Part shown: positions 47,519-63,081 of the stretch, piece after piece
How positions within the stretch are numbered: position 1 is the stretch's first letter
Layout: each line of letters starts with the position of its first letter
Origin: a virus
Direction: 5' to 3' (one strand)
IMG/VR virus record: IMGVR_UViG_3300020473_000015
Length of the DNA: 64,000 nucleotides
Notes under the pieces: model-generated
Database searches by the model: none
Seen by the model: the letters and a program-made list of their open reading frames with translations, nothing else
What the model was told of the DNA's origin: nothing
Position numbers and translations under genes: made by a program

Positions 47519-47555
47519 ATACAGCCGATTAAGGCATATTAAAGGAGAGCACACT

Positions 47556-47650: not shown

Positions 47651-47920
47651 ATGAAACTTACTAAATCACAATTAAAACAATTTATTAAAGAAGAATTACT
47701 TAACGAGATTGGAGAAGAAGGCCAATCGGGAGAGTGGGAGGATGAAGGCGAATTTAAAGCGGGAGATTTTGTTGAGGTAGAGATATATGATGATGGGTAT
47801 GAAAAGAATATAGAAAAACTTGAAAACCCAGCCGCATTTACGCCGACTCATGGAAGATACACATCTGAAAAATTCTTAGCTAAAATTGTACAAGTATCTA
47901 AACGAAAGTACGAGGATTAA
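47651..47920 (+). CDS. type-A leader + KOW-like segment
   Basis: MKLTKSQLKQFIKEELLNE; FKAGDFVEV. Confidence 0.75.
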   Translation: MKLTKSQLKQFIKEELLNEIGEEGQSGEWEDEGEFKAGDFVEVEIYDDGYEKNIEKLENPAAFTPTHGRYTSEKFLAKIVQVSKRKYED

Positions 47921-47922
47921 AT

Positions 47923-48468
47923 ATGAAACTTAAACAATCACAGTTACAAAAAATTATTAGAGAAGAATTTAAGGCAGTACTCAATGAAGCAGAATTCGAT
48001 GCAACAGACGAAATGAAAAAAGATTTCGATGAGGACTTAGACCATATGAGAGAGGCAATGCAAAACGTAGCACTTTCAGTAATTGATCAATACTCAGCTG
48101 ATTCAGAAAAATATGGCGAATTTACAAAAGAGGCAGCGCGGAAAGAAATAACCGAAGTTCTAGAAGCAACGCTAGTTAACTTTCTAGAAGACGCTTTAAC
48201 AATGTCTCCTGGCTTAGAAACCATTCTAGATCAAGAGTTTGATGAAGCTGATGATCCTGCACGTGCAGGCGTCATTAATGAATTTTTTGGTGGCAAATGG
48301 GATAAAAGTTGCCATTATACATTTGATGATGTAAAAGACGAATATTATGATTCTGGCGGTCAACGCGTTGGCGTATGGGTAATTAACGGACAGAAAAAAC
48401 ATTCATCTCAGATGACTGAAGCTGAAATAATGGATAATGAAAAAAGAATTCGTGGGGAATGGTGCTAG
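47923..48468 (+). CDS. type-A leader hypothetical protein
   Basis: MKLKQSQLQKIIREEFKAVLNE. Confidence 0.75.
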   Translation: MKLKQSQLQKIIREEFKAVLNEAEFDATDEMKKDFDEDLDHMREAMQNVALSVIDQYSADSEKYGEFTKEAARKEITEVLEATLVNFLEDALTMSPGLETILDQEFDEADDPARAGVINEFFGGKWDKSCHYTFDDVKDEYYDSGGQRVGVWVINGQKKHSSQMTEAEIMDNEKRIRGEWC

Positions 48469-48471
48469 CTA

Positions 48472-49725
48472 GTGCGTCTTTCTAAAACAAAACTTAAGCG
48501 AATCATTAAAGAAGAAATGCGAATTGCTATAGCATTGCATGAGAATGCTGTAGCATTGCATGAGAATGCTGATCTTATGCAAAACGCCACGCTGCTCAAT
48601 ATTAGAGATTTTGGTTATATTCCAGAAGATCCAAATTTTGATCAAAAGGCCGAAGCCGAACCCGCATTTGGGGATATTAAGCGGCATCTTGAAGCTGATG
48701 AAGGCGCAATTGCAATTGCAAAAAGTGGTAGCAAATACGTTTTTATTATGCTTGGCTTAAGCGAGCCGCATGGGCCCAATGAAGTGCGTAGTGTTGGCCA
48801 TGTCGATTCAAGATATACTTCAGCTGAAAAGGCGCTACAGATGTTTAAAGATCATGCGGAAAAATTTGTCGACGATGAGGTTGCAAAGAATGCTGTCATG
48901 AATACCACCTTAGAAGATCTAGATAATTTGCAAAATGAAGATATGCTAGTAGTAAAATCTAAGAAAAAAGTTTCCGATACACTTTCTTGGCTTCAAAGCC
49001 TCTCCGCGCAGCCAGTTGAAAAAAGTAGCTCTAAATCTGAAGATCGATATCATGATGAACCATACCATCATCAACCTGGATTGGTTGGTGGTGCAGCACG
49101 ACATCGAAAAAGAGTTTCTAAATATTATAAAGAAAGCAAGCTAACCAAATCTAATATTAAAGACTTAATCAAAGAAGAGCTTAGATCCGTCATGATTGAA
49201 GAGGGGCTGTGGGATAGTATTAAGAAACGTGCGAAGATAGCGTATAATGCGCCCGGAAGGCTAGCAAATAAAGCTGCCAATAAAATATATGATATGACTG
49301 CATCGAAAGACGTGCCTACCATGACGACTGGACCGGCAGACAAAGTTTCTAAAATGGAACAACCATGGGAATATGAAGAAGCTACACAAGATGAAAAAAC
49401 TAAATTTGATGTAGCCATGGCTATAGCTGGATTGTTAAGCCTAGGTCTTGGCGCTGCAGCTGCAGGTGGTGGCGCAGCGAAAAAGGCTGCAGGGCAAACA
49501 GCACTAAAACAATACCTAACGGATAAAGCTATCGATGCACCTGCAATTGCTGCTAGTACTTATGCTTCCTATCAACTAGCAATGCAAAAAGCTGGAAAAA
49601 AACCTGTTGGCAAGCAGCGCTTCGAAGCGGCCAAAGCGGCTTTAAAAAATATCGCTATAGAGGCAATGCCTGGAAATAAAGCAATTGGTATTGGTGCAAA
49701 AGCTAGCGCGACAGCTGCTGGTTAA
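48472..49725 (+). CDS. type-A leader protein with second internal leader and Ala-rich hydrophobic C-terminus
   Basis: MRLSKTKLKRIIKEEM; internal KLTKSNIKDLIKEEL near 49138. Confidence 0.75.
   Translation: MRLSKTKLKRIIKEEMRIAIALHENAVALHENADLMQNATLLNIRDFGYIPEDPNFDQKAEAEPAFGDIKRHLEADEGAIAIAKSGSKYVFIMLGLSEPHGPNEVRSVGHVDSRYTSAEKALQMFKDHAEKFVDDEVAKNAVMNTTLEDLDNLQNEDMLVVKSKKKVSDTLSWLQSLSAQPVEKSSSKSEDRYHDEPYHHQPGLVGGAARHRKRVSKYYKESKLTKSNIKDLIKEELRSVMIEEGLWDSIKKRAKIAYNAPGRLANKAANKIYDMTASKDVPTMTTGPADKVSKMEQPWEYEEATQDEKTKFDVAMAIAGLLSLGLGAAAAGGGAAKKAAGQTALKQYLTDKAIDAPAIAASTYASYQLAMQKAGKKPVGKQRFEAAKAALKNIAIEAMPGNKAIGIGAKASATAAG
48530..48571 (+). repeat. perfect 21-nt tandem duplication (ALHENA x2)
   Basis: TAGCATTGCATGAGAATGCTG twice. 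Confidence 0.95.
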
Positions 49726-49765
49726 CCTGAAAATAATAGTATTTATTAAGGAGAGGTATATACAA

Positions 49766-49978
49766 GTGAAACTAACTAATGTGAAACTTAAACAATTAAT
49801 CAAAGAAACCCTACAAGAAATGTATCTTACAAACACACCTAGTGGTGATAAAGATTTTCTACATAATGAAGATGGCTATGAAATAATAAACAATATTAAG
49901 GCGGCCATGGCAGATTATGATGAAAGCGATCCATGGGCTACTGTCGACGCTATTAAAGAATTACTTACATTTGAGTAA
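49766..49978 (+). CDS. type-A leader hypothetical protein
   Basis: GTG start after AGGAGAGG; KLTNVKLKQLIKETLQE. Confidence 0.7.
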   Translation: MKLTNVKLKQLIKETLQEMYLTNTPSGDKDFLHNEDGYEIINNIKAAMADYDESDPWATVDAIKELLTFE

Positions 49979-50526
49979 GAGTGTCTTTTTCCATTATAAT
50001 AAGACCCTTTCGCAATATTCTTTGATGCCTCAAGCGGTCTTAAATTCTTTAAACTCCACGCTTCCCTAATTTTTGGATCATCGCCATCACTAATACCATA
50101 ATACGCCAAAGGTATAATATGATCAATATGCCAATACGTACCATAGTTATCCCAATTCATTTCTGGCGTAAATTGCGATTCTAGATGCTCCTGAAGCTGT
50201 CTAGGGTTGAAATCGAAGTACTTACTGCTTGACCGGTCTTTCTGTACACCCTGCGTGTTTAAAAACTCTTTTAATCTTTTCGTACAATTTTTTCGTATTT
50301 TGACATGTGGCAGTTTTCTTCTCCGTCGACGCTGCATTCGCCTGGAAAGTTTACCGGCTGGGGTTTTACGCCACTCTTGTTTTTGTGCATATTTGCAAGG
50401 TTTGCAGATAGCCCTAAAATATTTACAATAGCCGTTTCCGGATTTCCGTTTTTTTCGACGAAGTTCGAAATGTTCGGTAGTTTTCGGTAGTGTGGTGTTG
50501 CAACTAGTGCAAGTTTTTGTTTCCAT
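49915..50526 (-). CDS. free-standing HNH homing endonuclease
   Basis: CTSC..CKPC Zn finger; WHIDHIIP..NLRPLEASKNIAKG; own promoter TTTACA-17-TATACT at 50561-50533 on the minus strand. Confidence 0.8.
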   Translation of the reverse strand: METKTCTSCNTTLPKTTEHFELRRKKRKSGNGYCKYFRAICKPCKYAQKQEWRKTPAGKLSRRMQRRRRRKLPHVKIRKNCTKRLKEFLNTQGVQKDRSSSKYFDFNPRQLQEHLESQFTPEMNWDNYGTYWHIDHIIPLAYYGISDGDDPKIREAWSLKNLRPLEASKNIAKGSYYNGKRHSYSNVSNSLIASTVAHGSLSS

Positions 50527-50618
50527 AGATCTAGTATACATGAGTTATTTGCGTTTGTAAAGAATAAAGTGAAAAAAAATTTTGAATATTCTATTTATTA
50601 TTGCTTCTGGAGGCCCAC

Positions 50619-50867
50619 ATGAGCTTAAACATAGCGAACCTTAAAAACATCATCAACGAGGAACTAGACCGCGCAACTAAAGACGTAAATTATACCGGCG
50701 ACATAGATGCCGTACAAGAGTGCATAACTGAAATACAAAATTTCTTAGCCGAATCTAGTGACCTATATATTAATTCATCTTTAGAGTTGAAAAAAAATAT
50801 TTTACTTGATTTACTTTCCTTATTACAGCTTATTGAGAACTATTCTAACAAATGGTCTGACATGTAG
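50619..50867 (+). CDS. type-A leader hypothetical protein
   Basis: MSLNIANLKNIINEEL; TCTATTTATT motif at 50590. Confidence 0.65.
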   Translation: MSLNIANLKNIINEELDRATKDVNYTGDIDAVQECITEIQNFLAESSDLYINSSLELKKNILLDLLSLLQLIENYSNKWSDM

Positions 50868-50903
50868 GAAAAAAAATTTTTGGTTTTTGGCCATACTTAT
50901 TAT

Positions 50904-51167
50904 ATGGCCCTCTCGAAAAAAACTAGAATCAAGCAAGAAAAGGTCGTACTGAACAAAAACCAACCTAACAATATTGAAGTCGCCATTGGAGAGGTCCATA
51001 GAATCGAAAATAAAGTATATTACGTCATTAGTTTTGGTGGTGACAAAGAAATTATAATATCAGGACCAGATGAATATGAAAAATTCATAGATTTAATTAT
51101 TAATCTAGACTGGGATCCTGAAGATACTTGGATCAGACCTAAACAAAAGAAGCGACAGTTTGATTAA
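50904..51167 (+). CDS. hypothetical protein
   Basis: start taken at MALSKK. Confidence 0.55.
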   Translation: MALSKKTRIKQEKVVLNKNQPNNIEVAIGEVHRIENKVYYVISFGGDKEIIISGPDEYEKFIDLIINLDWDPEDTWIRPKQKKRQFD

Positions 51168-51605
51168 TTACTTTTTGTGCTTTTTGCCCTTCTTTCCTCT
51201 TCTTTTCTTTTTATTATTATAATAGTGATTGTTTATAACTCTTCTATTTTTAATAACAGTCCTATTTCTTACAATCGGCTTAAGCCTCGGATGTCTTTTT
51301 CTTACAATTGGTCTTTTACGATATATACGATGTTTTTTATGACGATATACTTTTCCTCGATATCTGATTCTATTAATATGTCGACGTCGTATGGTGTGAT
51401 ATCTTACCTCTCTGACTGATGGCCTGAGAGATACTCGATAGCTTGGAATTTGTACTAAATAACCATCCCAGCAATCATCGATGTGTGAAGTATATACAAC
51501 TTCGTGTGGTGTAACCAACCCATCGCCATAAAACAATTGAGGCTGACATTCAAACGTACCAAGCGTTAAACCGCTTGATAATATAAATATTAAACATGTT
51601 CCCAT
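51168..51605 (-). CDS. secreted Arg/Lys/His-rich protein
   Basis: hydrophobic N-terminus, very basic C-terminal half. Confidence 0.55.
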   Translation of the reverse strand: MGTCLIFILSSGLTLGTFECQPQLFYGDGLVTPHEVVYTSHIDDCWDGYLVQIPSYRVSLRPSVREVRYHTIRRRHINRIRYRGKVYRHKKHRIYRKRPIVRKRHPRLKPIVRNRTVIKNRRVINNHYYNNKKKRRGKKGKKHKK

Positions 51606-51688
51606 GATTTTCTCCTTTATGTTACTACTTTAAAATGCAAACTACGTGCCAAGTTTTAAAATATACATAATTATGATATAATTATATC

Positions 51689-51883
51689 ATGAAGAATGTG
51701 ATAAGTCTACAAGAAAGTCGAATAAAACGAGATATAAAAAACGCTTATACAAAACTGAAAGAGGTTCGAACTTTAATATCCTATGGAAAGCATGAAATGG
51801 TTGATGAAGCGTATGAATTGGAAAATAGAATATTAGATTTGGAAGAGCAATTATTAGATTTAGTAGAATCGGACTCTTTTTAA
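51689..51883 (+). CDS. hypothetical coiled-coil protein
   Basis: MKNVISLQESRI. Confidence 0.6.
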   Translation: MKNVISLQESRIKRDIKNAYTKLKEVRTLISYGKHEMVDEAYELENRILDLEEQLLDLVESDSF

Positions 51884-51962
51884 ATTTTTATTAAAAATTA
51901 GTGTTTATTATGTTAATATGATCTCAGGCCTTAGTATTATAACGTTATAAGGAGGTGTACAT

Positions 51963-52145
51963 ATGGCTACAAATGCAGAAATCAAAAGAGAAGTTGAAGA
52001 TCTTAAAAATCGTCTTGCAAGCTTACAATCCAGCAATTCTCGACTATTTGATGAGATGGCAGCGCTCAAGAGCAACTATAGTAACTTAGTTGAAGACATG
52101 AATGCTCGTCTTGAGGTAGTACATAACAAAATTTTTCGTAAATAA
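51963..52145 (+). CDS. hypothetical coiled-coil protein
   Basis: AAGGAGG SD, heptad pattern. Confidence 0.7.
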   Translation: MATNAEIKREVEDLKNRLASLQSSNSRLFDEMAALKSNYSNLVEDMNARLEVVHNKIFRK

Positions 52146-52218
52146 AAAAGAACCCTCAAGAATAAGAAAAATCATAGATACAATAAAAATGTTTCTATTA
52201 ATAAAATAAGGAAAAATT

Positions 52219-52425
52219 ATGCAACAACAACAAATGAGCATCGACTTAAAACAAGCGGAAAATGTTGGATGCGAAGAGTGTGGCCATTTATATTTCACCC
52301 CCGTAGCGATGATGAAAAGGCTTTCTGCTCTTGTATCTCCAACCGGACAAGAACTTAAATTTCCAGTTCAATGCTTCCAATGTGTCGAATGTGGTCATGT
52401 TTTAGAGCCACCAACCCCTCAATAA
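52219..52425 (+). CDS. Zn-ribbon protein
   Basis: CEECG..CVECG. Confidence 0.7.
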   Translation: MQQQQMSIDLKQAENVGCEECGHLYFTPVAMMKRLSALVSPTGQELKFPVQCFQCVECGHVLEPPTPQ

Positions 52426-52483
52426 AAAATTAATTAATTTTAATACGTTAACGTTAAGTGTGGTGCGCTGGTCTATATATAAT

Positions 52484-52690
52484 ATGCCTTCACCACGCTT
52501 TAACGTTGGCGATTTAGTCCAGTTTGATTCCTTTGGTCATACCATAGGCATTGTAACTGATGTAAAAAACTCTCCTAGCTTTGATCCCCCTGAAAAAATA
52601 GCTGATGTATTGGTATATTGGTCTGATGGCATAGAATTCTGGTGTCTGGACTTTTGTTTAGTGATTGTTTCGAAATATAAAACTAATTAA
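52484..52690 (+). CDS. KOW/SH3-like small protein
   Basis: FNVGDLV..IGIV..VYWSDG. Confidence 0.65.
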   Translation: MPSPRFNVGDLVQFDSFGHTIGIVTDVKNSPSFDPPEKIADVLVYWSDGIEFWCLDFCLVIVSKYKTN

Positions 52691-52695
52691 TACTA

Positions 52696-52908
52696 GTGAT
52701 GAAACTTGATTTAAAAACAGCAATAATGATAAGCACTTTATTATTCACAGTGTCTGGCTTTTATTATACAACCATAAGTGATATTAATGTGCTATCATTA
52801 AAGATTCAAGCGCTTGAGAGCGAAAATCGCATGCAACAAAAAAGATTAGATTCACTAGATAAAAAAACAAACCGGTTGAATAAACAACTCAAGGATTTGA
52901 AAAAATGA
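52696..52908 (+). CDS. TM + coiled-coil protein
   Basis: hydrophobic N-terminus; ACTAATTAAT motif at 52682. Confidence 0.6.
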   Translation: MMKLDLKTAIMISTLLFTVSGFYYTTISDINVLSLKIQALESENRMQQKRLDSLDKKTNRLNKQLKDLKK

Positions 52909-53342: not shown

Positions 53343-53366
53343 ATAAAATTAAAGTGAGGATAAACA

Positions 53367-53987
53367 ATGAAACTACTATTTGAAAATTGGCGAGAATTCT
53401 TAAAAGAAGAAAATGAAATTGTGAAGACAAATAACGCGGTGGTTATTTTTTCTGATTGGGCGAAGGGTCATATTGAAAAGGGACACAAAGAGCCGGGAAA
53501 GGGTTCAATATTTGCAGACTTTGATCTTTCTTTGGTTAATTCTGCTCTAGAACAAATTGAAATAAATCCAAACAAAGCAGTATATACCATTAGTGTTCCA
53601 AGTGTCGGTTATAACCTAGTTCTTCCAGACAACGAGGCATCACAATTGGAAGGTGCTCAAAAAACAGAAGTAGAAAAGGAAGAAAGACAGGGACCAATCA
53701 CAGTTAATGCATATACGACTTCTCAACCACTAGAGAGCTTTAAAACGGATGAATTATCTGTTGTTATTAGACCAACAAGTGAATTACAATATGTTCCAGA
53801 GGATCTTCAACAAGATCCAGCGGTTACACAGGCGCTTGATCAAGGAAATTTATATTCCGTTCTTTCTGCATGGCCAGGAAGAGGAGATGTACCACCGGCC
53901 TCTCAATGGGGCGATGATTGGGCTGTTATTATTCCAGATCGAGCTATAGAGAGCGATGGGGAAGTTGTCGATGAAACTCCTATTTGA
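53367..53987 (+). CDS. type-B leader hypothetical protein
   Basis: MKLLFENWREFLKEE. Confidence 0.8.
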   Translation: MKLLFENWREFLKEENEIVKTNNAVVIFSDWAKGHIEKGHKEPGKGSIFADFDLSLVNSALEQIEINPNKAVYTISVPSVGYNLVLPDNEASQLEGAQKTEVEKEERQGPITVNAYTTSQPLESFKTDELSVVIRPTSELQYVPEDLQQDPAVTQALDQGNLYSVLSAWPGRGDVPPASQWGDDWAVIIPDRAIESDGEVVDETPI

Positions 53988-54405
53988 AAATTGGCGAGAA
54001 TATTTGAAAGAAACTATAGAGAATCTTCTATGCCCTGCAGCAACTCAGGATCTGGAGCTTAATACTAGAAACAGAGACGCTGCAGTTCAAGCAGAGCACA
54101 TTCAGTATGGACCTCTAAACGTTGATGAGCCTGGAGACTATTGGCAAAAAATTGCCGAGGCATGGAACACCTCAGAAAAGGCTGCGCAAAAGTCTTTGTG
54201 TGGTAATTGTGTCGCTTTTGATATTTCTCCTCGCATGAAAGATTGTATGCCCGGAGAAACCTCAGACAAAGATGGGGAACTTGGATATTGTTGGATGCAC
54301 CACTTTAAGTGTCATTCTGCTAGATCATGCAGAACGTGGGCCAAAGGTGGTCCGATCACTGAAGATATTAAATCTGCAGAATGGCAGGAAAAAAATGAAC
54401 GATGA
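53971..54405 (+). CDS. type-B leader Cys-rich conserved phage protein
   Basis: MKLLFENWREYLKE; CGNCVAFD, YCWMHHFKCHSARSC. Confidence 0.8.
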   Translation: MKLLFENWREYLKETIENLLCPAATQDLELNTRNRDAAVQAEHIQYGPLNVDEPGDYWQKIAEAWNTSEKAAQKSLCGNCVAFDISPRMKDCMPGETSDKDGELGYCWMHHFKCHSARSCRTWAKGGPITEDIKSAEWQEKNER

Positions 54406-54656
54406 AACTCCTACTTGAAAAATGGCGAAAGATTATAAATGAAGAAGTTGTTGATTTTCCAAGTGAAATTACAGCCGTCGAGCGCTATGCTAATTATATA
54501 GAGTATATAAATTTAGCAATTGAACAAATAATCTCTCTAGAAGAGATTTTTGAGAGACAAGGTTCAACCACAGAAGATTTAGTTGAGATTAAAGAAAATC
54601 TTATACAGTTGCGAGATGACGAAACGCTAAAATACGATATGGAGGGTTACGAATGA
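54402..54656 (+). CDS. type-B leader hypothetical protein
   Basis: MKLLLEKWRKIINEE. Confidence 0.75.
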   Translation: MKLLLEKWRKIINEEVVDFPSEITAVERYANYIEYINLAIEQIISLEEIFERQGSTTEDLVEIKENLIQLRDDETLKYDMEGYE

Positions 54657-55294
54657 GATTACTATTTGAAAATTGGCGAAAATTCTTATTAACAGAAAAG
54701 CTAATGCTTAAGCCTGGGCCTGATGGGTGGGACAAGTATAAAGAATTAGTAGCAAAAGCTTATGATGAGGCTCCTATATTTGATGAGGGCGCCGTAGGCG
54801 CATTTGAAGCAATAGAGCCATTTGTGCATAAAATGTTTGATCGTATAATTGGTTTTGGAATTGATATTGATTTTGTTGATGATAATCCTTATGAGAGTTC
54901 CGAAGAGATGTGTAGAGATGTGTCTGAAAACAAGATATTAAGAATATGGAAAGGAGGCACAGATCATCAAATATTTGACGCGAAAACAAATTTAAAATTA
55001 CGGGCTGTGCATGATTATATGACACATTGTCAGGGTGGAACTAGTTTTGACCTGCAGGGCGAAATTGCCTCTTATAATCGGCATATGAAGACCGTTCCTC
55101 CTTCAGCAGCAGGAGCTTTATTTACAGAAGTTGTAGGTCAGGCAGCATTTTTCCTTGATAGAGGATATTTCCCTCCACAAAAAATAGCTATTTTACCGGG
55201 GTTTGATTTTTTCAACGTTGGTGAAGTAGATCCAGAAATTACAGGATATAAATTAGATGCAGAAAGGAAGGAACTAGTTAAAGTAGGAGAATAA
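54653..55294 (+). CDS. type-B leader conserved phage protein
   Basis: MRLLFENWRKFLLTE; RAVHDYMTH..GE..FTEVVGQ. Confidence 0.8.
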   Translation: MRLLFENWRKFLLTEKLMLKPGPDGWDKYKELVAKAYDEAPIFDEGAVGAFEAIEPFVHKMFDRIIGFGIDIDFVDDNPYESSEEMCRDVSENKILRIWKGGTDHQIFDAKTNLKLRAVHDYMTHCQGGTSFDLQGEIASYNRHMKTVPPSAAGALFTEVVGQAAFFLDRGYFPPQKIAILPGFDFFNVGEVDPEITGYKLDAERKELVKVGE

Positions 55295-55299
55295 GAATA

Positions 55300-55952: not shown

Positions 55953-55955
55953 AAA

Positions 55956-56900
55956 ATGAAATTATTATTTGAAAATTGGAGGAAATACTTGAAAGAGGAA
56001 GAAATTCTTTACGAGAGGATTAATTTACTCTCTAGTAATAAAAGATTTGTTAACGATACCTTAGAAGAAATTGCATCAGAAGATCCTAGACGCCAATTTC
56101 CACTTTCAGACGAAGAACTAGAAAAAATAAAAAGTGTTGCGGGCCTTGATGGAGATCCAGATTTTTTAGGATCCGGCTCAAGAGGATCTGCATGGCAATT
56201 TGGTGATAAGGTTTTAAAAATCACAGCGGACAGTTCTGAAGCGCGTGCTGCTAATTTATTAATTGACAAAGAGCATCCAAATGTATATAAAATATTTTTA
56301 GTTGTGCAAAGAGACCCAAAGCACCTTGAAACGTTAAGGCATGCGCCATATATTGTTGTTTATGAATTATTAGATTATCCAAACAACGCCATGGTAGATA
56401 CTACAAATAATTTATATCACAAGCTTAAAACAAATAATATTTTTTATAATTGGGATGAAAATTATTTAGAGAAAGCAAAAGGTTCGATGAGTGCTTTGTT
56501 GCAATATATTAACAAACATCCAGAATCTTTAGAACGCGAAGAGAAAAAAGGATCCGACATAAGACCTACTCTTGAAAATTTAGCTGCTCAGATTGGATTA
56601 GATAAACTTGAGACAAAATTATTAATCACTTTGTGGATTTTTAGCCGCGGTGCATACAACGATACTTTAGATAGCCCACTTAAAGCGTTGGAACATGTAA
56701 GAGAAATATTTGGAAGCGTTAAAACTAATTATTTAAACCAATTAGCTTTAGGTTTGACCTGGTTAAATAAGAATGGTATTAAATTTCCTGATTTAAAAAC
56801 TTCCAATGTAATGGAAAAAGATGGTCAAATAGCTATCATTGACATTGGTTATTCACAGGTAAGAGAGAAGAAAAATATTCCAACGATTGGGGAACTATAA
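55956..56900 (+). CDS. type-B leader + protein-kinase-like fold
   Basis: LGSGSRGSAW, VLKIT, helix-C Glu, FPDLKTSNVM, IIDIG. Confidence 0.8.
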   Translation: MKLLFENWRKYLKEEEILYERINLLSSNKRFVNDTLEEIASEDPRRQFPLSDEELEKIKSVAGLDGDPDFLGSGSRGSAWQFGDKVLKITADSSEARAANLLIDKEHPNVYKIFLVVQRDPKHLETLRHAPYIVVYELLDYPNNAMVDTTNNLYHKLKTNNIFYNWDENYLEKAKGSMSALLQYINKHPESLEREEKKGSDIRPTLENLAAQIGLDKLETKLLITLWIFSRGAYNDTLDSPLKALEHVREIFGSVKTNYLNQLALGLTWLNKNGIKFPDLKTSNVMEKDGQIAIIDIGYSQVREKKNIPTIGEL

Positions 56901-57449
56901 ATGAAATTATTATTTGAAAATTGGCGACAGTATTTAACTGAAAATCAAGAAGAGAACAAGGCAACAAAATTTCCAGCAATTGTCACCTTCGATTTTGATG
57001 ACACTTTGTCATTATCTCACTGGGGTGAAGAAGAAGATGATTGGGTCTACGACGGGCCTCATCAAGAAATGATGGATATACTAATGGATTATCACAGGAA
57101 AGGCTCTAAAATATTTATTGTTACCTCAAGACACAAAGAACTTCAAGACGAGGAGGGGAAATGGTTTAAACATCTTCCAAACACCAATCCCCCTAGAAAG
57201 TACTTTGAAGAATTCCAAATGCCAGTTTGGAAATTTGTTAAAAAACATGGATTGCCAATTCAAGATGTCATATTTACTAACGGAGAGGTAAAAGCAAAAG
57301 CTGAAGATGGCTTAATTGAAATAGGTTCGGATGTACATCATGATGATGATCCAGAGGAAATAAGAGCAGCTGAAGAGGCTGGAATTAAAGCTATTGTCTC
57401 CGATCCATATGGAGATTATAAAAGACTTGAAAAGGGTTTTGTAAAATGA
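56901..57449 (+). CDS. type-B leader + HAD-superfamily phosphatase
   Basis: FDFDDTL, IVTSR, K, HHDDD. Confidence 0.8.
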   Translation: MKLLFENWRQYLTENQEENKATKFPAIVTFDFDDTLSLSHWGEEEDDWVYDGPHQEMMDILMDYHRKGSKIFIVTSRHKELQDEEGKWFKHLPNTNPPRKYFEEFQMPVWKFVKKHGLPIQDVIFTNGEVKAKAEDGLIEIGSDVHHDDDPEEIRAAEEAGIKAIVSDPYGDYKRLEKGFVK

Positions 57450-58249
57450 AATGGAAAGATTATTTAGAGGAAAATATTGATCCGGATGACGTAGATATTA
57501 AAAATGTCGCGGTCAAAGATAATTTAGATCCTGTAATATGGGATGATCGATTAAATTTAAAGAATTATCTTGCGGAACATTTATATAAAATAGCCAAAGA
57601 TTTTTTTAAAACATTGGATTTAGATTGGAACTTAGTTGAAGATGTAACTCTAACTGGATCTCTAGCAAACTACAATTGGTCTAAATATTCTGATGTGGAT
57701 TTACATTTGATCGTTGATTATGCAGAAGTAGATGAAAATGAAAAGCTTGTTAAAGATTTTTTCAGAAACGCTAGCGCAATGTGGAATCGTACTCATAAAA
57801 TAACAGTGAAGGGTCATGATGTGGAATTGTATGTCCAGGACTCAAAAGAGCCACACCATTCAACAGGAGTGTATTCTATAAAGTATGATAGATGGAATAA
57901 CACTCCAACAAAATATGATCCACAAATAGATAAAGAATCATTAAAGAAGAAGTCTGCAAAATGGATGAACGATATTGATGAGGTATATGAACTGCTTGCA
58001 GTAAAAGATTATAAAACCGCAAATGAACAATCTGAGCGTCTTATGAAAAAATTAAAAAAATATAGACAAGGTGGATTAGAAAAAGGTGGAGAGCATTCAA
58101 TTGAAAATTTAGTTTTTAAAGTTCTAAGACGTAATGACTATTTACAGAGACTCTCTAATTTAAGAATTGTATCGTATGATAATATGATGACTGTCAATGG
58201 AGGAATAGGAAGTGAAATTATCAAAATCAGTCTTAATGAAACTAATTAA
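57446..58249 (+). CDS. short leader + Pol-beta superfamily nucleotidyltransferase
   Basis: MKWKDYLEE; TGSLANYNWSKYSDVDLHL, VELYVQD. Confidence 0.8.
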   Translation: MKWKDYLEENIDPDDVDIKNVAVKDNLDPVIWDDRLNLKNYLAEHLYKIAKDFFKTLDLDWNLVEDVTLTGSLANYNWSKYSDVDLHLIVDYAEVDENEKLVKDFFRNASAMWNRTHKITVKGHDVELYVQDSKEPHHSTGVYSIKYDRWNNTPTKYDPQIDKESLKKKSAKWMNDIDEVYELLAVKDYKTANEQSERLMKKLKKYRQGGLEKGGEHSIENLVFKVLRRNDYLQRLSNLRIVSYDNMMTVNGGIGSEIIKISLNETN

Positions 58250-58358
58250 AGAAGAGCTTGCAACTCTTTATGAATGACCTGAAAATCCTTTGGGGTCTCC
58301 AGAGGAAAGTGTTGTTATGATTGCCGAAGATGAAGACGAAGACGAAGAAGAGGTATAA
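58212..58358 (+). pseudogene. type-A leader ORF interrupted by an in-frame TGA at 58275-58277
   Basis: (M)KLSKSVLMKLIKEELATLYE*PENPLGSPEESVVMIAEDEDEDEEEV*. Confidence 0.55.
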
Positions 58359-58360
58359 CT

Positions 58361-58615
58361 ATGTGTTTAGTTTGTATTGAATATGAAAAGGGCAAATTAA
58401 AAATTAATGAGGCCCTCAGAAACATAGAAGAAATGAAAGAAGTTGTTGGTCAAGAACATTATGATGAAACTATGGCATTTCTCACTCAAGAATTGTTAAA
58501 AGAACAATGGAGTGAATATGATTTCGGTCGTGACATCGAAGATAGTCTCTTTGAATATGATTTTCATAGTGGCGATGATGACGACCCATGGGAAGAAACA
58601 GGGTTCGGGGACTAA
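58361..58615 (+). CDS. hypothetical protein
   Basis: MCLVC start, acidic tail. Confidence 0.65.
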   Translation: MCLVCIEYEKGKLKINEALRNIEEMKEVVGQEHYDETMAFLTQELLKEQWSEYDFGRDIEDSLFEYDFHSGDDDDPWEETGFGD

Positions 58616-60720
58616 TGAAGTTTTTTGAAGGTTGGAATCGGTTCTTAAATGAGTCCGAAGATGTAGACGTTTATGCAAAAACCAAACTACAAAAGCCCAA
58701 AGGTCAGGAAATAGAAACTGATGAGTATGATGCGCCCTATGAATATGATGATTCACCCGAAAAATCAGCAGAAACATATTTTGGCAAAAGTCCTGACAAT
58801 CTTCCGTGCGTAAGAGATCTTAGAGATCAATCAAAAGATGTTTTTCCTCCAGATTTTTATAAATGTATGGAGGCTGCAGGCTATACTAAACTTGGAGCAG
58901 GCTCTTTTAGAGCAACTTTCGATGTTCCAGAAAATCCTGAGCTAGTTTTAAAGATTGTCGGCCCTGCAAATAGCTATCCAGAACAAATAAGAAGCAGAGA
59001 GATGAACAAAGAGGAGGCTAAAGCCTCTTATCAAACCGCGTCTGAATTAATTCCTAAAGTTTACAATAGTGCTAAAGATTATTTTTGGATTATATCCGAA
59101 AAAGTGACTCCAATAGAGGATTGGAAGGCGATGCAGGAGTTTTTCCCCATATGGAAAGAGGAGCCTCTTGAAGAATTTCAATATTGGTTCCAAAAATTAA
59201 TTGATTCTAGAACAATACCTAAAATTGCTGCGGAGCGAATAAATAAACGAGCAGAATATACAGTAAGTTATGGCGACGGTGAAGAATTGGTCAACGATCC
59301 TCTCATATTAAACATTCGTGACCTTCTAGCACAATTTGATTTACCTGCATGGGACATTAGACCACATAATGTTGGTTATGCTGTTAGAAATGGTCAAAAA
59401 CAGTTTGTTATATTAGACCCAGGCTTTGAATTGGGGAAAGATGTCGGCACTATTAAAGGCCAAGCTGTGGATCCAGGAAGGGGAATATCAGCTATCTTTG
59501 ACGATGATAAGAAATATGTTAAGACCTGGAGTCCAGAAGCTCGTAAGACCACAGTCGTAAAAGAGAATTTAAATAAAAATTGGCAACTTTTCTTAGAAAA
59601 TGAAGAAAATGAAGAAAATGAAGAAAATGTAAAGGGTCCGGACGACTTTTTCTACGATATTTCGAAATCTCCGAACAAAATCACTATTAATGTGCTTGAT
59701 ATGGATAAAAACCCCGTTGATAGCAAGAAAAAAGACACAAAATCCTTTATTTCAATGGAAAAACGCACAGATGTGCCAAATTGGGAAGTTTCCTGGTCAT
59801 CTTCGCCCGAAAACAGCAAAGAAGTGGGCAAAACCATGTATTTAATGGCTCTAGAGCTAGCTGAAGAGGGATTAGCGCCCGATTCTTACGAAACTAGCCC
59901 AGATGCACTTAAAATTTGGCACATATTCATGAAAAACAATGAATTTGGGGTTGAAAAGCAGTTAAAAGACGGTCATGAGGGTCAAGATGAGTCAGATCCC
60001 TTCAATTTTGTGTTTTTTAAGCCAAAAAGTGGCATTTTAGGCCAATATCAGCACCAAATTAACGAAAAAGAGGCAAAAAGTGACGAAAAAGCGGGTTTTG
60101 ACCCCGAAAAAGAGGAAAAAGTCGAATATTTCGACCCAGAACAGTTTAATTGGGAAGATTTAGACGATATTGACGAACTATATGAGCGCTTAACCAGAGA
60201 TAATGACACAGATATGGTCTCAAAGGTGATTATTGCCGATGATAGCGGCAAAATATTGATTTTAAAGCGCTCAGATAAGGGAAATATGTGGGATTTGCCC
60301 GGAGGACACCTAAAAAAAGGTGAAAATCCGCTTGATGGGGCCCACAGAGAGACAAAAGAAGAGACAAATCTTGATATTTCGGATTTAAGTGCCTTAAATA
60401 CGCATGAAAACGTTCATTTTTTCAAATGTGGAGCACCAAAAGGAGATATATCACTCCAACCAGAGGAGCATACTGACTTTATGTGGGTAAATCCGAAGGA
60501 AATTGACCAATACGACATGAAAAACCACCAAAAAGAAGCTATTTTAGGTGCATTTGAGCCTTTAGAGGAACAAAATGAGCCATATCAGAGGTTTTCTAGG
60601 GGTACATACAAGAAATTTATAACAAAATTGGCCAAACAAGGCCCAAATAAGTATAGTATAGGTGGGAAAATGAAAAAAGCAGCTGCAAAACACCTCAAAA
60701 GTGGCCCACCGGGAGGCTAA
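58615..60720 (+). CDS. type-B leader + kinase-like + GNAT-like + Nudix multidomain protein
   Basis: MKFFEGWNRFLNE; LGAGSFR, LVLKI, DIRPHN, ILDPG; GKTMYLMALE..PD..SPDALKIW; Nudix box GGHLKKGENPLDGAHRETKEETNL. Confidence 0.8.
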   Translation: MKFFEGWNRFLNESEDVDVYAKTKLQKPKGQEIETDEYDAPYEYDDSPEKSAETYFGKSPDNLPCVRDLRDQSKDVFPPDFYKCMEAAGYTKLGAGSFRATFDVPENPELVLKIVGPANSYPEQIRSREMNKEEAKASYQTASELIPKVYNSAKDYFWIISEKVTPIEDWKAMQEFFPIWKEEPLEEFQYWFQKLIDSRTIPKIAAERINKRAEYTVSYGDGEELVNDPLILNIRDLLAQFDLPAWDIRPHNVGYAVRNGQKQFVILDPGFELGKDVGTIKGQAVDPGRGISAIFDDDKKYVKTWSPEARKTTVVKENLNKNWQLFLENEENEENEENVKGPDDFFYDISKSPNKITINVLDMDKNPVDSKKKDTKSFISMEKRTDVPNWEVSWSSSPENSKEVGKTMYLMALELAEEGLAPDSYETSPDALKIWHIFMKNNEFGVEKQLKDGHEGQDESDPFNFVFFKPKSGILGQYQHQINEKEAKSDEKAGFDPEKEEKVEYFDPEQFNWEDLDDIDELYERLTRDNDTDMVSKVIIADDSGKILILKRSDKGNMWDLPGGHLKKGENPLDGAHRETKEETNLDISDLSALNTHENVHFFKCGAPKGDISLQPEEHTDFMWVNPKEIDQYDMKNHQKEAILGAFEPLEEQNEPYQRFSRGTYKKFITKLAKQGPNKYSIGGKMKKAAAKHLKSGPPGG

Positions 60721-60752
60721 ACACTAGTTATTTAGGAGAGGAGAAGCTTAAA

Positions 60753-60956
60753 TTGCCATTTCTAACCGATATTCCCCCAGAATTGATCGATTTTTTGATT
60801 GAAAAAGAGAAAAAAGAGCAAGAAAAGGGCCATGAAATGCCTTTTTTACAGCTTCCAGTGCCATATATGCCCGAAATTGAGGGCCAAAATAGCCAAAAAA
60901 ACCCCCAAAATGACCAAAATGACGATAATCAAGGGGCTATAATTATAGATTTATAG
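60753..60956 (+). CDS. hypothetical protein
   Basis: TTG start after GGAG; PFLQLPVP..IIIDL. Confidence 0.55.
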   Translation: MPFLTDIPPELIDFLIEKEKKEQEKGHEMPFLQLPVPYMPEIEGQNSQKNPQNDQNDDNQGAIIIDL

Positions 60957-60978
60957 TGTGTGTTTTAAGAATTTTAAG

Positions 60979-60988
60979 ACTATTTATG
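60979..60988 (+). promoter_or_regulatory. candidate phage late-promoter motif
   Basis: ACTATTTATG upstream of 61011. Confidence 0.45.
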
Positions 60989-61010
60989 AGGTAAAAAGGA
61001 GACATTTCAT

Positions 61011-62117
61011 ATGCGCGTCACAAAAACTGAACTTAAAAGGCTCATTAAGGAAGAATTAGAAGCAGTTTTAAAAGAAAAGGTGGGCGACGATCTCGACTCA
61101 GATCTGCAGCATGCGGAGCATTGGTATGAGCATTGGAAAAATATACATAATAATACCAGTGATAAAAACGGCCAGATGTGGGATGACTCCAGAATGCAGA
61201 TGCAGCACTATTTGGCACAAATTACAAATATTAAAGCCGCGAAGAAGGCCGCAGCTGCGAAGAAGAAAGCTGCCGCGAAGGAAGCGATGAAGGCTCGTCG
61301 ACAAGATGCTCTATCAACCATGGACACGCCACAAGAGGCAATGGAATATTGGTGTGGGAAAGATTGTCCTCCAGACACTCCAGTGCCGGAAGATTGGAAA
61401 GAGAGGACAAAGGCGGCACTATTGAAACAATTTTCTGGTGGCGACTGGAAAGAGGGCAAAGTTGAGGAGGGGGACATCGAAGTAGACTGGATGCCCGAAC
61501 CTAATGATTGGGTTGGTTCTGGATATAGAGAAGTTGCTAGCGCAGTTAAAAACATTACTGGCTTAAAATCTCTAAAGGGGGGCTGGTGGAGAAAGCCGCT
61601 ACCAGAAGGCAAATGTAATGATCCAGAATTTTGTTATACAGAAGGTCGTAGAGCGGGTAGAATGAAACGCAATCACCCTGTTCGAGTTGCATTCCGAAAA
61701 TATTATAATGCAAGAAAAGGAAAGAAAAGAAAGCCAAAAAAAGAAGGCCCAATGAAATTTTATACAAAAGGTAATCAGGCTTCAGCTGGTGCAATTGAGG
61801 CAATTAAAAAAGGCGAAGAGGCAGTATTGGTGGTTGATGATAACCAAAAAGAAGTGAGTCGAATTAAAGACATTGATGAAGCCATTGGTATAGTAATGGG
61901 AAATATTAATGCTTCTGATGATAAAGGCGACAGAAAGGCGAGTCGAGCGGCTAGAAAAGAACTTAGAAGGCTTAAAGTCACGAAGCGCGCTCTAGCTAAA
62001 AAAGCAAATAAAAAAGCTGGCTTGGGAGATCTCTATAAAAGAGCAGGAAAGAGAAAACGCGTTCCCTCATCACAACTAACCAAAAAACAACAAAATTTAC
62101 AAACCAAGGCTAAATAA
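61011..62117 (+). CDS. type-A leader Lys/Ala-rich protein
   Basis: MRVTKTELKRLIKEELEAVLKE. Confidence 0.8.
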   Translation: MRVTKTELKRLIKEELEAVLKEKVGDDLDSDLQHAEHWYEHWKNIHNNTSDKNGQMWDDSRMQMQHYLAQITNIKAAKKAAAAKKKAAAKEAMKARRQDALSTMDTPQEAMEYWCGKDCPPDTPVPEDWKERTKAALLKQFSGGDWKEGKVEEGDIEVDWMPEPNDWVGSGYREVASAVKNITGLKSLKGGWWRKPLPEGKCNDPEFCYTEGRRAGRMKRNHPVRVAFRKYYNARKGKKRKPKKEGPMKFYTKGNQASAGAIEAIKKGEEAVLVVDDNQKEVSRIKDIDEAIGIVMGNINASDDKGDRKASRAARKELRRLKVTKRALAKKANKKAGLGDLYKRAGKRKRVPSSQLTKKQQNLQTKAK

Positions 62118-62119
62118 CA

Positions 62120-62734
62120 GTGTTTATTACAAAAAATAAACTCCGCACAATTATTCAAGAAGAATTGGAGAATGTTGTTGATGATTTACAAAACATTTGG
62201 AAAATGTTGGGGGCAAAAGACAAGGCTGCGTTTGCTAGTAACGTTAAAAAAGTAAAAAATACAATACAAAGAAAACGCACATCGTCTTCGCGCAACAAGT
62301 GCCCAGAAGGAGAAGAACAAGTAGGTACATTGGAAGGCGGCGAAGTTGTATGTTGGCCTATAGGTTGGGAACCTCCAGAACCAAAAAAATTAACACAAAG
62401 ACAACTTAACATGCCCAGAACGAGTACAAAAAAAAGTAAAACAGTGGCACACAAGCCTGCTCCTGAAGAATTGCCAATAAATATTGATGGGGATGAAGAT
62501 TCAGCGCTTTGGACGGTTTTAACACACAAAGGACAAAACGCATCAAAAGAGGAAAACGCTAGAAATATTCAAATATTTAAAAAAGTATTCGGGGACGGAG
62601 ATTATGATGAAGAAGATATTGCACTTGTTAATAAATTATTAGATTCTCCCGAATTCGCTTGGACAAAAAAAGCTAGATACAACCCAAGAAGAAAGTGGGC
62701 TGTAAAGATGCTGCGGCAGGGTGGAAAAAAATAA
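62120..62734 (+). CDS. type-A leader hypothetical protein
   Basis: (M)FITKNKLRTIIQEELE. Confidence 0.75.
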   Translation: MFITKNKLRTIIQEELENVVDDLQNIWKMLGAKDKAAFASNVKKVKNTIQRKRTSSSRNKCPEGEEQVGTLEGGEVVCWPIGWEPPEPKKLTQRQLNMPRTSTKKSKTVAHKPAPEELPINIDGDEDSALWTVLTHKGQNASKEENARNIQIFKKVFGDGDYDEEDIALVNKLLDSPEFAWTKKARYNPRRKWAVKMLRQGGKK

Positions 62735-62736
62735 AT

Positions 62737-63081
62737 ATGAAGCCAATTCTTGAAAATTTTAGAAAATATCTAAAAGAAATTAAAAATAGGTGGGAATTTG
62801 ATGTCCTAGTGCGCTTAGATAAGGACGCAAACCTTTATGCAGATATTTTTGAGAAAATTCGCGCTATTCCTGGTGTAACAATTGTTAAAACCGAAGAAAA
62901 ACAAAGAAATATTTCTCAAACTCAAAAAGCAGCTGTATTAGAGATTAAATGTATTGTTGGTGATACTGGAATGGGGAACTATGCACTGTTTTTAAAGAAA
63001 CAACTAGCCAAAATAAAAGATGAAGAAGGTGATAGAATTTTAGGCGTACAATTCACTACACCTCCAGAAGATATATCATAA
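62737..63081 (+). CDS. type-B leader + small ferredoxin/ACT-like domain
   Basis: MKPILENFRKYLKE; IFEKIRAIPGVTIV. Confidence 0.7.
   Translation: MKPILENFRKYLKEIKNRWEFDVLVRLDKDANLYADIFEKIRAIPGVTIVKTEEKQRNISQTQKAAVLEIKCIVGDTGMGNYALFLKKQLAKIKDEEGDRILGVQFTTPPEDIS

What the first reader, a model, noticed from the sequence alone, without database searches (positions are those of the whole stretch)
47651..63081. About 20 unrelated proteins share one N-terminal leader: candidate capsid-targeting tag for an injected protein payload
Seen: type A (MKLxKxxLKxIIKEEL) at 4711, 5091, 47651, 47923, 48472, 49766, 50619, 58212, 61011, 62120. Type B (MKLLFENWRx(Y/F)LxE) at 53367, 53971, 54402, 54653, 55956, 56901, 58615, 62737, with a short form at 57446. 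What follows the leader is unrelated between genes (kinase, HAD, NTase, Nudix fusion, Cys-rich and Ala-rich domains). Most leaders end in or near an (L/I)-x-E motif, and several sit behind the candidate late motif. Established: T4 internal proteins carry a ~10-aa N-terminal capsid-targeting sequence that the gp21 prohead protease removes after Glu in L/I-x-E sites. Inference: this phage has a modular address tag that lets any domain be packaged into the head and delivered at infection, at a much larger scale than in T4.
Basis: partly seen in the sequence, partly recalled or inferred. Interest (0 to 1): 0.85.

Follow-up and report, generated by a model that had tools for sequence, protein, structure and literature searches.

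The report
Shared head-loading tags on phage proteins
About 18 unrelated proteins of this large uncultured marine phage start with one of two 14-residue tags. The tags look like the peptide phage T4 uses to load proteins into its head and then cuts off, so these proteins are probably packed and injected with the DNA, but no experiment shows this.

Summary
The window holds 11 copies of leader A (MKLTKSxLKQIIKE|EL), one of them internal and one a 21-residue leader-only ORF. It holds 7 clear copies of leader B (MKLLFENWRxYLxE) plus one degenerate copy at 58615. The claimed short form at 57446 is not supported. The bodies behind the tags show no similarity to one another.

Both tags are widespread in IMG/VR fragments of about 180-200-kb marine phages: 624 hits, and 515 non-redundant cargos in 296 sequence clusters.
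- Conservation starts exactly at the ATG and ends at residue 14.
- Both tags end in [L/I]-x-Glu at residue 14, almost never Asp.
- This is the T4 gp21 cleavage motif and the layout of the T4 capsid-targeting sequence.
- A complete syntenic relative has a T4-type head module, and all 11 leader-B records at least 80% complete carry a gp21-family protease.
- In two relatives a leader-A gene sits directly after the protease gene.
- Tagged genes share a promoter-like motif with structural genes.

Most likely (about 50%) these are cleavable head-loading tags. Packaging, cleavage and injection are unproven. The mostly acidic, often enzymatic cargo is unlike T4 internal proteins. The scan had already noted leader B on other DNA (e1-5337083). 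I found no paper describing it.

The parts
4711..5079 (+). Leader-A gene, 122 aa, body unknown; lies beside the UvsX-like gene
   Evidence: HMM 33 bits; no Pfam or PHROG hit
5091..5627 (+). Leader-A gene, 178 aa
   Evidence: HMM 24 bits; C-terminus hits phrog_12788, function unknown
47507..47520 (+). Late-like promoter motif variant (AACTACTTATAA) ahead of the mini-ORF at 47557 and the first tagged gene
   Evidence: 12.0 bits with a PWM built from motifs upstream of G002 structural genes
47651..47920 (+). Leader-A gene, 89 aa, acidic
   Evidence: HMM 36 bits
47923..48468 (+). Leader-A gene, 181 aa, acidic
   Evidence: HMM 24 bits
48472..49725 (+). Leader-A gene, 417 aa, GTG start, with a second internal leader A at 49138-49188 ahead of an Ala/Lys-rich C-terminal module
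   Evidence: HMM 19.5 and 15.4 bits
49766..49978 (+). Leader-A gene, 70 aa, GTG start
   Evidence: HMM 20.6 bits
50588..50601 (+). Late-like motif TCTATTTATTAT, about 30 nt before the gene at 50619
   Evidence: PWM 13.5 bits; CTATTTA
50619..50867 (+). Divergent leader-A gene, 82 aa
   Evidence: HMM 15.4 bits
53367..53987 (+). Leader-B gene, 206 aa, body unknown
   Evidence: HMM 28 bits; no family hit
53971..54405 (+). Leader-B gene, 144 aa, Cys-rich body
   Evidence: HMM 33 bits
54402..54656 (+). Leader-B gene, 84 aa
   Evidence: HMM 18 bits
54653..55294 (+). Leader-B gene, 213 aa; folded domain of unknown fold with invariant His/Asp/Glu residues
   Evidence: HMM 23 bits. In the AF2 model residues 1-14 have pLDDT<50 and form a detached helix (3-11), while the body has pLDDT>90. 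Mycobacteriophage homologues align only from residue 33.
55956..56900 (+). Leader-B gene, 314 aa, weak protein-kinase-like C-terminus
   Evidence: HMM 32 bits; Pkinase E 9e-6, below the Pfam cut-off
56901..57449 (+). Leader-B gene, 182 aa, HAD/PNKP-phosphatase-like
   Evidence: HMM 36 bits; weak Pfam hits
57446..58249 (+). Nucleotidyltransferase-domain gene, 267 aa; the claimed 'short form' leader is not supported
   Evidence: No HMM hit; NTP_transf_2 at 21.3 bits against a cut-off of 21
58212..58277 (+). Leader-A-only ORF, 21 aa, ending in L-x-E and a stop; a 20-22-residue counterpart (depending on start codon) sits at about 84478 in relative G002, in the syntenic block between the NTase and Nudix-fusion homologues
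   Evidence: HMM 21.5 bits here and 17.4 bits in G002
58615..60720 (+). Degenerate leader-B gene (MKFFEGWNRFLNE), 701 aa, C-terminal Nudix domain
   Evidence: HMM 7.2 bits; NUDIX E 2e-20
60977..60990 (+). Late-like motif GACTATTTAT, about 30 nt before the gene at 61011
   Evidence: CTATTTA at 60980
61011..62117 (+). Leader-A gene, 368 aa, basic Lys/Ala-rich (pI 9.7), resembles an internal protein
   Evidence: HMM 25 bits; pI
62120..62734 (+). Leader-A gene, 204 aa, GTG start, basic (pI 9.3)
   Evidence: HMM 22.8 bits; pI
62737..63081 (+). Leader-B variant gene (MKPILENFRKYLKE), 114 aa, conserved in G002
   Evidence: HMM 25 bits; aligned to G002

Best explanation
Leaders A and B are detachable N-terminal address peptides, analogous in function to the T4 capsid-targeting sequence. 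Each forms a short amphipathic helix that docks a newly made protein onto the scaffolding core while the prohead assembles. The T4-gp21-type prohead protease then cuts after the invariant Glu14 ([L/I]-x-E). The 14-residue tag leaves the head, and the mature protein stays there to be ejected with the DNA into the next cell. Because the tag is short and self-contained, recombination can put it on almost any gene. This gives each phage about 20 candidate packaged proteins, in a hypervariable gene block. Shown here: the tags, their modularity, peptide-level selection, the Glu-specific end motif, the presence of the protease and head module in relatives, and the promoter-motif link. Inferred only: docking, cleavage, packaging and injection.
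For: 1) The tag is a discrete peptide. In 523 non-redundant tagged ORFs from IMG/VR, conservation starts at the ATG, and upstream DNA shows only a Shine-Dalgarno sequence. For leader B conservation collapses after residue 14; leader A keeps residues 15-16. Synonymous codons vary at every conserved position, for example Leu and Arg across two codon families.
2) Both unrelated-looking tags place [L/I]-x-E with Glu at residue 14: A 220/228, B 215/295, against a background of 1.2% per position. Glu, not Asp, fills that position: A 227 E and 0 D; B 241 E and 4 D. E/(E+D) is 0.52-0.67 in the following 20 residues.
3) Published T4 data match this. gp21 cuts after L/I-X-E. The CTS is MKTYQEFIAE. Its residues 4 and 7 target, residues 8 and 10 govern processing, and Asp at residue 10 blocks cleavage (PMC9026906, PMC8442874, PMC9958956).
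4) G002 is a complete 190.6-kb genome syntenic with the window. It has TerL, a gp20 portal, a gp21 homologue with His and Ser kept at the two positions where the PDB chain 5JBL carries Ala (5JBL, E 1e-13), and a gp23 capsid protein (E 6e-27). By eye, its capsid protein has LLRE|A near the T4 FLTE|A cleavage site (T4 sequence from memory), and a 424-aa scaffold-like protein has 23 [L/I]-x-E sites. Peptidase_S77 is present in 11 of 11 leader-B records at least 80% complete.
5) In G051 and G023 a true leader-A gene lies directly after the protease gene. The conserved 147-aa protein at that position starts MKKxELKKxLKPLIKECIKE, which resembles leader A.
6) The motif ACTATTTAT precedes G002 head and tail genes and also leader-A genes. 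CTATTTA lies within 70 nt upstream of 29/223 A genes and 22/289 B genes, against my rough composition estimate of about 1%. The sigma-70-like -35 element is not enriched. The window has 16 strong sigma-70-like promoters, 12 of them between 34.8 and 47.3 kb and the last at 47310, and none inside the tagged block.
7) In an AF2 model, residues 1-14 are a detached low-confidence helix in front of a confident domain. Leader B is strongly amphipathic.
8) Homologous bodies occur with tag A, with tag B, or (in mycobacteriophages) with no tag.
9) The tag is essentially absent from 185,579 bacterial and archaeal genomes: one match, consistent with my rough estimate of about 0.5 by chance.
Against: There is no virion proteome, no cleavage assay and no cultured close relative. 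The link to gp21 is lineage-wide, so the co-occurrence is not an independent test. Cargo is mostly acidic (median pI about 5, 65% below 5.5), unlike the basic T4 internal proteins. Identified bodies include guanylate kinase, HD, Nudix, RNase T-like and HAD enzymes, and N-terminal motifs (QIYCDMDGVLVDF) suggest 5'-nucleotidase-like bodies. Such enzymes could simply work in the cytoplasm. Two tagged genes sit in the replication module (4711, 5091). A sigma-70-like promoter lies 340 nt upstream of the block. Similarity of leader A to the 147-aa protein encoded directly after the protease gene is below significance (E 1.6-9). There is no detectable sequence homology to the T4 CTS, only a shared layout.
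Confidence: 0.5

Rival explanations
1. The tags dock proteins to a hub in the cytoplasm rather than to the capsid, for example a nucleotide-metabolism or replication complex, the phage GroEL, or another phage-built body. The Glu14 motif would then be part of the binding helix or a site for another enzyme.
For: Many identifiable bodies are nucleotide or phosphate enzymes. Cargo is acidic. Two tagged genes lie among replication genes. The phage encodes GroEL.
Against: No candidate hub gene was found. The strict Glu-over-Asp choice and the fixed [L/I]-x-E at residue 14 in two different tags fit a Glu-specific protease better than a binding surface. Leader-A genes lie inside head modules, and the structural-gene promoter motif is enriched upstream of tagged genes.
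Confidence: 0.2
2. The tag is a removable pro-peptide or timing device that keeps enzymes inactive or short-lived until a protease acts, with no packaging. That protease could be the prohead protease or a host enzyme.
For: The tag carries a conserved protease-type site, is detached from the fold, and sits on many enzymes.
Against: T4-type prohead proteases are known to act inside proheads (PMC9958956). A 14-residue helix outside the fold is unlikely to inhibit about 300 unrelated folds.
Confidence: 0.1
3. The shared 5' end is mainly a DNA-level recombination or expression cassette, like the PeSL cassettes of T4-type phages, and the peptide itself has no role.
For: Codon choice in the tag is skewed relative to the gene bodies, as expected from common descent by DNA copying. 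There are scars and orphans: a leader fused to the end of the upstream ORF at G002 74997, and the leader-only ORF at 58212. The tagged block is hypervariable: about 34% aligns to G002, against about 64% for the rest of the window (my tally of the rows). PeSL precedent: PMC2839356, PMC4122927.
Against: Nothing is conserved upstream of the ATG beyond a Shine-Dalgarno sequence. Amino acids are 90-100% conserved through synonymous changes. Trp8, Glu6 and Glu14 are invariant.
Confidence: 0.05

Closest known systems
Capsid-targeting sequence (CTS) of phage T4 internal proteins IPI-III and the Alt pro-peptide
   Same: Both are N-terminal, 10-20 residues long and start with MK. Both have aromatic or hydrophobic targeting residues followed by [F/Y/I]-[L/I]-x-E. 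Both sit on otherwise unrelated proteins in a phage with a gp21-family protease and a gp20/gp23 head. Both prefer Glu over Asp at the cut position (PMC9026906, PMC8442874).
   Different: The tags here are 14 residues, not 10, and show no detectable sequence homology to the T4 CTS. There are two distinct tag classes. There are about 20 tagged genes per genome and about 300 cargo clusters, against a handful in T4. The cargo is mostly acidic and often enzymatic. The phage has a DnaE-type polymerase rather than a T4-type replisome. There is no experimental proof.
Long pro-peptides of ejection and inner-body proteins in giant phages (phiKZ, 201phi2-1, SPN3US)
   Same: In both cases a gp21-related protease cuts after Glu at a three-residue motif, and the pro-peptides are thought to target proteins into the prohead (PMC5694885).
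   Different: Those pro-peptides are mostly over 100 residues, are not one shared portable tag, and use the motif S/A-x-E.
PeSL mobile regulatory cassettes in hyperplastic regions of T4-type phages
   Same: Both involve a short shared element at gene boundaries in a hypervariable gene block, which may guide gene shuffling (PMC2839356).
   Different: PeSLs are non-coding promoter and stem-loop DNA. Here the conserved unit is the coding sequence, selected at the peptide level, with no conserved upstream DNA.
N-terminal encapsulation peptides of bacterial microcompartment enzymes
   Same: Both are short amphipathic N-terminal helices followed by a loose linker, placed on diverse enzymes, that dock to the inside of a protein shell (from my own knowledge; not tested here).
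   Different: Those peptides are not cleaved, and they dock to a BMC shell rather than a capsid. I did not look for BMC shell genes.

Membership tests
T4-type capsid-targeting sequence processed by a gp21-family protease | Short pro-peptide (10-20 aa) at the extreme N-terminus of otherwise unrelated proteins | tested here: met
   92-94% of 624 hits start at Met, a median of 6-8 codons after the previous stop. 515 cargos fall into 296 clusters. The window bodies are mutually dissimilar.
T4-type capsid-targeting sequence processed by a gp21-family protease | Pro-peptide ends in the gp21 site L/I-x-E, with Glu required | tested here: met
   Glu at residue 14 preceded by L/I at residue 12 in 96% of A copies and 73% of B copies. 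E:D is 227:0 and 241:4.
T4-type capsid-targeting sequence processed by a gp21-family protease | Same genome encodes a gp21-family (Peptidase_S77) prohead protease and a gp20/gp23 head | tested here: met
   Met in the syntenic complete relative G002 and in 11/11 leader-B records at least 80% complete. The window's own assembly is not held, so its own head genes were not seen.
T4-type capsid-targeting sequence processed by a gp21-family protease | Sequence homology to the T4 CTS MKTYQEFIAE | tested here: not met
   By eye against the published sequence, only the layout is shared: MK start and a [F/Y]-[L/I]-x-E end. The length differs and no alignment can be made. No statistical comparison was run.
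T4-type capsid-targeting sequence processed by a gp21-family protease | Tagged proteins are present in virions with the pro-peptide removed, and the tag suffices to load a foreign protein | not testable with these tools
   Needs virion proteomics with N-terminomics and reporter fusions.
PeSL-type mobile DNA cassette | Conserved non-coding promoter and stem-loop DNA flanking the swapped genes | tested here: not met
   Information content upstream of the ATG is about 0 apart from the Shine-Dalgarno sequence. Window upstream regions are dissimilar.
Sec/Tat or lipoprotein signal peptide | Hydrophobic core of 7-15 residues after a basic N-region | tested here: not met
   The leaders are charged amphipathic helices with mean hydrophobicity -0.2 and no hydrophobic core.

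The most novel reading that the evidence does not exclude
An abundant clade of 180-200-kb ocean phages uses two interchangeable, sequence-readable address tags to load a fast-evolving set of about 20 proteins per virion into the head. These include enzymes such as Nudix and nucleotidyltransferase domains, with weaker kinase-like, phosphatase-like and possibly ADP-ribosyltransferase-like bodies. The whole injected protein set of uncultured phages could then be predicted from sequence. The two tags may specify different sites or copy numbers in the prohead core.
Probability: 0.4. Interest if true: 0.85.

Novelty: new variant of a known kind. Interest (0 to 1): 0.7.

Why it matters
If the tags do load proteins into the head, they would mark, in raw metagenomic sequence, which proteins a phage delivers at the moment of infection. 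That class includes known anti-defence and host-takeover factors and is otherwise found only by virion proteomics of cultured phages. It would extend the T4 capsid-targeting principle from a few internal proteins to hundreds of cargo families in an abundant uncultured marine lineage. It would supply a natural, portable packaging tag. It would also explain the hypervariable gene block as a swappable payload region. The E-not-D rule at residue 14 gives a sharp, cheap test.

Tried and rejected
- Complex prediction of the G002 147-aa protein encoded directly after the protease gene (alignment A4) with a 91-aa leader-A protein: no verdict, score 0.00. This is not evidence either way.
- Search for cultured carriers. 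blastn and tblastn of the block and of 21-residue leaders against 50,697 phage records found nothing; the short queries have low power. The nearest cultured head-module relatives are Microcystis phage Mel-JY01 and Flavobacterium phage immuto, with 43-44% portal identity. Neither has exact leaders. An HMM found only two short leader-A-like N-termini in immuto.
- Full-text search for the motif letters: no paper.
- Foldseek of the 213-aa cargo model against the PDB: no match.
- An HMM of the N-terminus of that 147-aa protein picks up leader-A proteins only at E 1.6-9, which is suggestive but not significant.
- ART-PolyVal hits on two B-tagged proteins from other contigs are below threshold (E 0.06, 0.11).
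- gp21 co-occurrence as an independent test: rejected, because all leader-B contigs belong to one lineage.
- DNA-cassette model: rejected, because there is no upstream conservation.
- Signal-peptide reading: rejected on composition.

Full report
**What is there**

The window is part of a large uncultured phage. Genes run almost entirely on the + strand.
- The first 46 kb hold replication and auxiliary genes: a PolA-like fragment, UvsX-like recombinase, 5'-3' exonuclease, DnaB-like helicase, ribonucleotide reductase, DnaE-type Pol III alpha, two lysins and GroEL.
- From 47.6 to 63.1 kb lies a tightly packed block in which most ORFs start with one of two leaders.
- HMMs built from the copies separate signal from noise sharply. 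Leader A gives 11 hits at 15-36 bits, against 6.6 for the best noise hit. Leader B gives 7 hits at 18-36 bits, against 6.9.
- The copy at 58615 is degenerate (7.2 bits). The claimed short form at 57446 is not detectable.
A second leader A lies inside the 417-aa ORF, at 49138. The ORF at 58212 is a 21-residue leader-only ORF, and relative G002 has a 20-22-residue counterpart in the syntenic block.
- After removal of the first 20 residues, the 18 bodies have no BLASTP similarity to each other.

**Where else it occurs**

A strict leader-A pattern hit 71, partly on the same contigs.
- HMM scans of those 181 loci (1.5 Mb) gave 270 A hits and 354 B hits at 14 bits or more. Of these, 92-94% begin with Met, a median of 6-8 codons after the preceding stop. 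Only 17 are internal.
- The 515 non-redundant cargos of 30 residues or more form 296 BLASTP clusters, 217 of them singletons. Only about one in six of the 63 cluster representatives scanned has a Pfam family. Those found include guanylate kinase, Nudix, HD and RNase T-like exonuclease, plus a weak protein-kinase hit (E 1.5e-6).
- Closely similar bodies carry tag A in one phage and tag B in another, for example 87% identity over 91 residues. Mycobacteriophage homologues of the 213-aa body have no tag and align only from residue 33.
- Within that family, 93 of 120 metagenomic homologues keep leader B at the N-terminus, and most of the remainder keep a diverged or slightly offset form.
- The leader-B pattern is essentially absent from one genome each of 185,579 prokaryote species. 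The single match fits my rough estimate of about 0.5 by chance.

**Peptide or DNA?**

- Upstream of the ATG there is no conservation beyond a Shine-Dalgarno sequence (window copies).
- Inside the tag, the amino acids are 82-100% conserved at the key positions, while several synonymous codons are used at each. Codon usage is nevertheless skewed relative to the gene bodies.
- So the tag spreads by DNA copying but is held by selection on the peptide.
- The block is hypervariable. About 34% of it aligns to the closest complete relative, against about 64% for the rest of the window (my tally of the rows).
- Scars exist, such as a leader fused to the end of the upstream ORF in G002. The tags may therefore also serve as recombination joints.

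**Anatomy of the tags**

- The two tags differ in sequence but share a frame: M-K at positions 1-2, hydrophobic or aromatic positions, then [L/I] at 12 and Glu at 14.
- This holds for 220/228 A copies and 215/295 B copies. The background rate is 1.2% per position.
- After residue 14, conservation in B vanishes into an acidic linker. Leader A continues weakly and often has a second L-x-E at residues 20-22.
- Position 14 is Glu, not Asp: 227:0 in A and 241:4 in B. In the next 20 residues and in the bodies, E/(E+D) is 0.52-0.67.
- Leader B is strongly amphipathic as a helix.
- In an AF2 model of the 213-aa protein, residues 1-14 are a detached low-confidence helix in front of a confident domain.

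**Link to head assembly**

The window's own assembly is not held. IMG/VR record G002 (190,629 bp, CheckV 100%) is syntenic with the window at about 70-77% nucleotide identity. G002 has 13 A tags and 8 B tags. It also has a T4-type head module:
- large terminase;
- a gp20-type portal;
- a gp21-family protease (5JBL, E 1e-13), with His and Ser kept at the two positions where the PDB chain carries Ala;
- a conserved 147-aa protein directly after the protease gene;
- a 424-aa acidic protein with 23 [L/I]-x-E sites, which looks like a scaffold;
- a gp23-type capsid protein (E 6e-27). By eye, its pro-peptide ends LLRE|A near the site where T4 has FLTE|A (T4 sequence from memory).

Peptidase_S77 was found in all 11 leader-B records that are at least 80% complete. 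All these contigs belong to one lineage of about 180-200-kb phages, so this agrees with the model but is not an independent test.

More specific evidence comes from gene position. In G051 a genuine leader-A gene, basic and Ala/Gly/Lys-rich, sits between the protease gene and the gene for that 147-aa protein. In G023 a leader-A gene directly follows the protease gene. The 147-aa protein itself starts MKKxELKKxLKPLIKECIKE, which resembles leader A, although the similarity is statistically weak.

**Timing**

- In G002 the motif ACTATTTAT lies 25-47 nt upstream of head and tail genes. It also lies upstream of three leader-A genes.
- In the window it, or a one-mismatch variant, precedes 47557/47651, 50619, 58212 and 61011.
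- Across relatives, CTATTTA lies within 70 nt upstream of 13% of A genes and 8% of B genes, against my rough composition estimate of about 1%. The sigma-70-like -35 element is not enriched.
- The window has 16 strong sigma-70-like promoters (TTGACA-N17-TGnGATAAT). Twelve lie between 34.8 and 47.3 kb, the last at 47310, and none lies inside the tagged block.
- That the motif is a late promoter is an inference.

**Comparison with the known system**

In T4, the 10-residue CTS MKTYQEFIAE loads IPI-III, and any fused protein, into the scaffolding core. gp21 then cuts after L/I-X-E. CTS residues 4 and 7 govern targeting, residues 8 and 10 govern processing, and Asp at residue 10 blocks cleavage (PMC8442874, PMC9026906, PMC9958956, PMC5694885). 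The tags here reproduce that layout and the Glu rule in a lineage with the same protease family.

They are not homologous in sequence to the T4 CTS. They come in two classes. They sit on about 20 genes per genome. Their cargo is mostly acidic (median pI about 5), with a minority of basic Lys/Ala-rich proteins that resemble T4 internal proteins (61011, 62120).

**Verdict**

- The best explanation is a cleavable head-loading tag, at about 0.5.
- The main rivals are a non-capsid docking tag (0.2), a pro-peptide or timing device (0.1) and a pure DNA cassette (0.05).
- I found no paper describing these leaders.
- The scan itself had already noted leader B on another marine phage genome (e1-5337083) and similar tags elsewhere. 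Those notes are unchecked and were not used as evidence.

Noticed in passing
window 47557-47637 (+): A 26-residue Cys-rich mini-ORF (MKTLHRLVNWLNPLHCCCECGCCKCK) with its own Shine-Dalgarno sequence lies just before the first tagged gene. A near-identical peptide is encoded upstream of a leader-A gene in G002 (about 94.1 kb).
   Followed up: partly
window 58212-58277 (+); G002 about 84478 (-): A leader-A-only ORF of 21 residues here, ending L-x-E and a stop. G002 has a 20-22-residue counterpart in the syntenic block. It may be a free tag peptide, a decoy or a regulator rather than a simple scar.
   Followed up: partly
window 30273-47330 (+): An array of 16 strong sigma-70-like promoters, 12 of them between 34.8 and 47.3 kb. 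Most have an extended -10 element (TTGACA-N17-TGnGATAAT) and most sit ahead of small ORFs. This is probably the early region, and the array stops just before the tagged block.
   Followed up: partly
window 49915-50541 (-): A 208-aa ORF on the opposite strand, inside the tagged block, has an HNH-like signature (WHIDHIIP...N...N). It may be a homing endonuclease. Not checked against Pfam.
   Followed up: no
window 63138-64000 (+): A lipoprotein-like ORF with tandem Cys-rich CxxCDGxDNDCDG repeats of the kind common in Myxococcota. Not tested here.
   Followed up: no
L187 (IMG/VR record 3300032138_000002), 604-aa open frame: One open frame carries three internal leader-A copies without Met (at positions 157, 346 and 523). 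It may be a polyprotein of tagged modules cut at each I-K-E.
   Followed up: no
L214:6295-6870 and L134:4421-5179 (Flavobacterium phage immuto, MW353175): This cultured phage has a related T4-type head module and two proteins starting MKKSELVKLIKEEL and MKKSQLRQIIKEAL. These are 12-residue forms of leader A, so the phage is a possible experimental system.
   Followed up: partly
L071:4104-4460, L035:4509-4871: Small leader-B proteins with a YHG[GS] motif give sub-threshold hits to ART-PolyVal, the ADP-ribosyltransferase of polyvalent phage proteins. If real, this would parallel T4 Alt.
   Followed up: partly
window 54653-55294: The 213-aa cargo family has a confident AF2 model with no PDB fold match and invariant His105, His120-Asp121, His125, Glu137, His144 and Glu159. 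It may be a new metal-dependent enzyme, shared with cluster-C-like mycobacteriophages.
   Followed up: partly
G002 164525-164758 (-); L133 (Mel-JY01) 16563-16790: A ribosomal protein S21-like gene is conserved inside the head module, between the 147-aa gene that follows the protease gene and the next structural genes.
   Followed up: no
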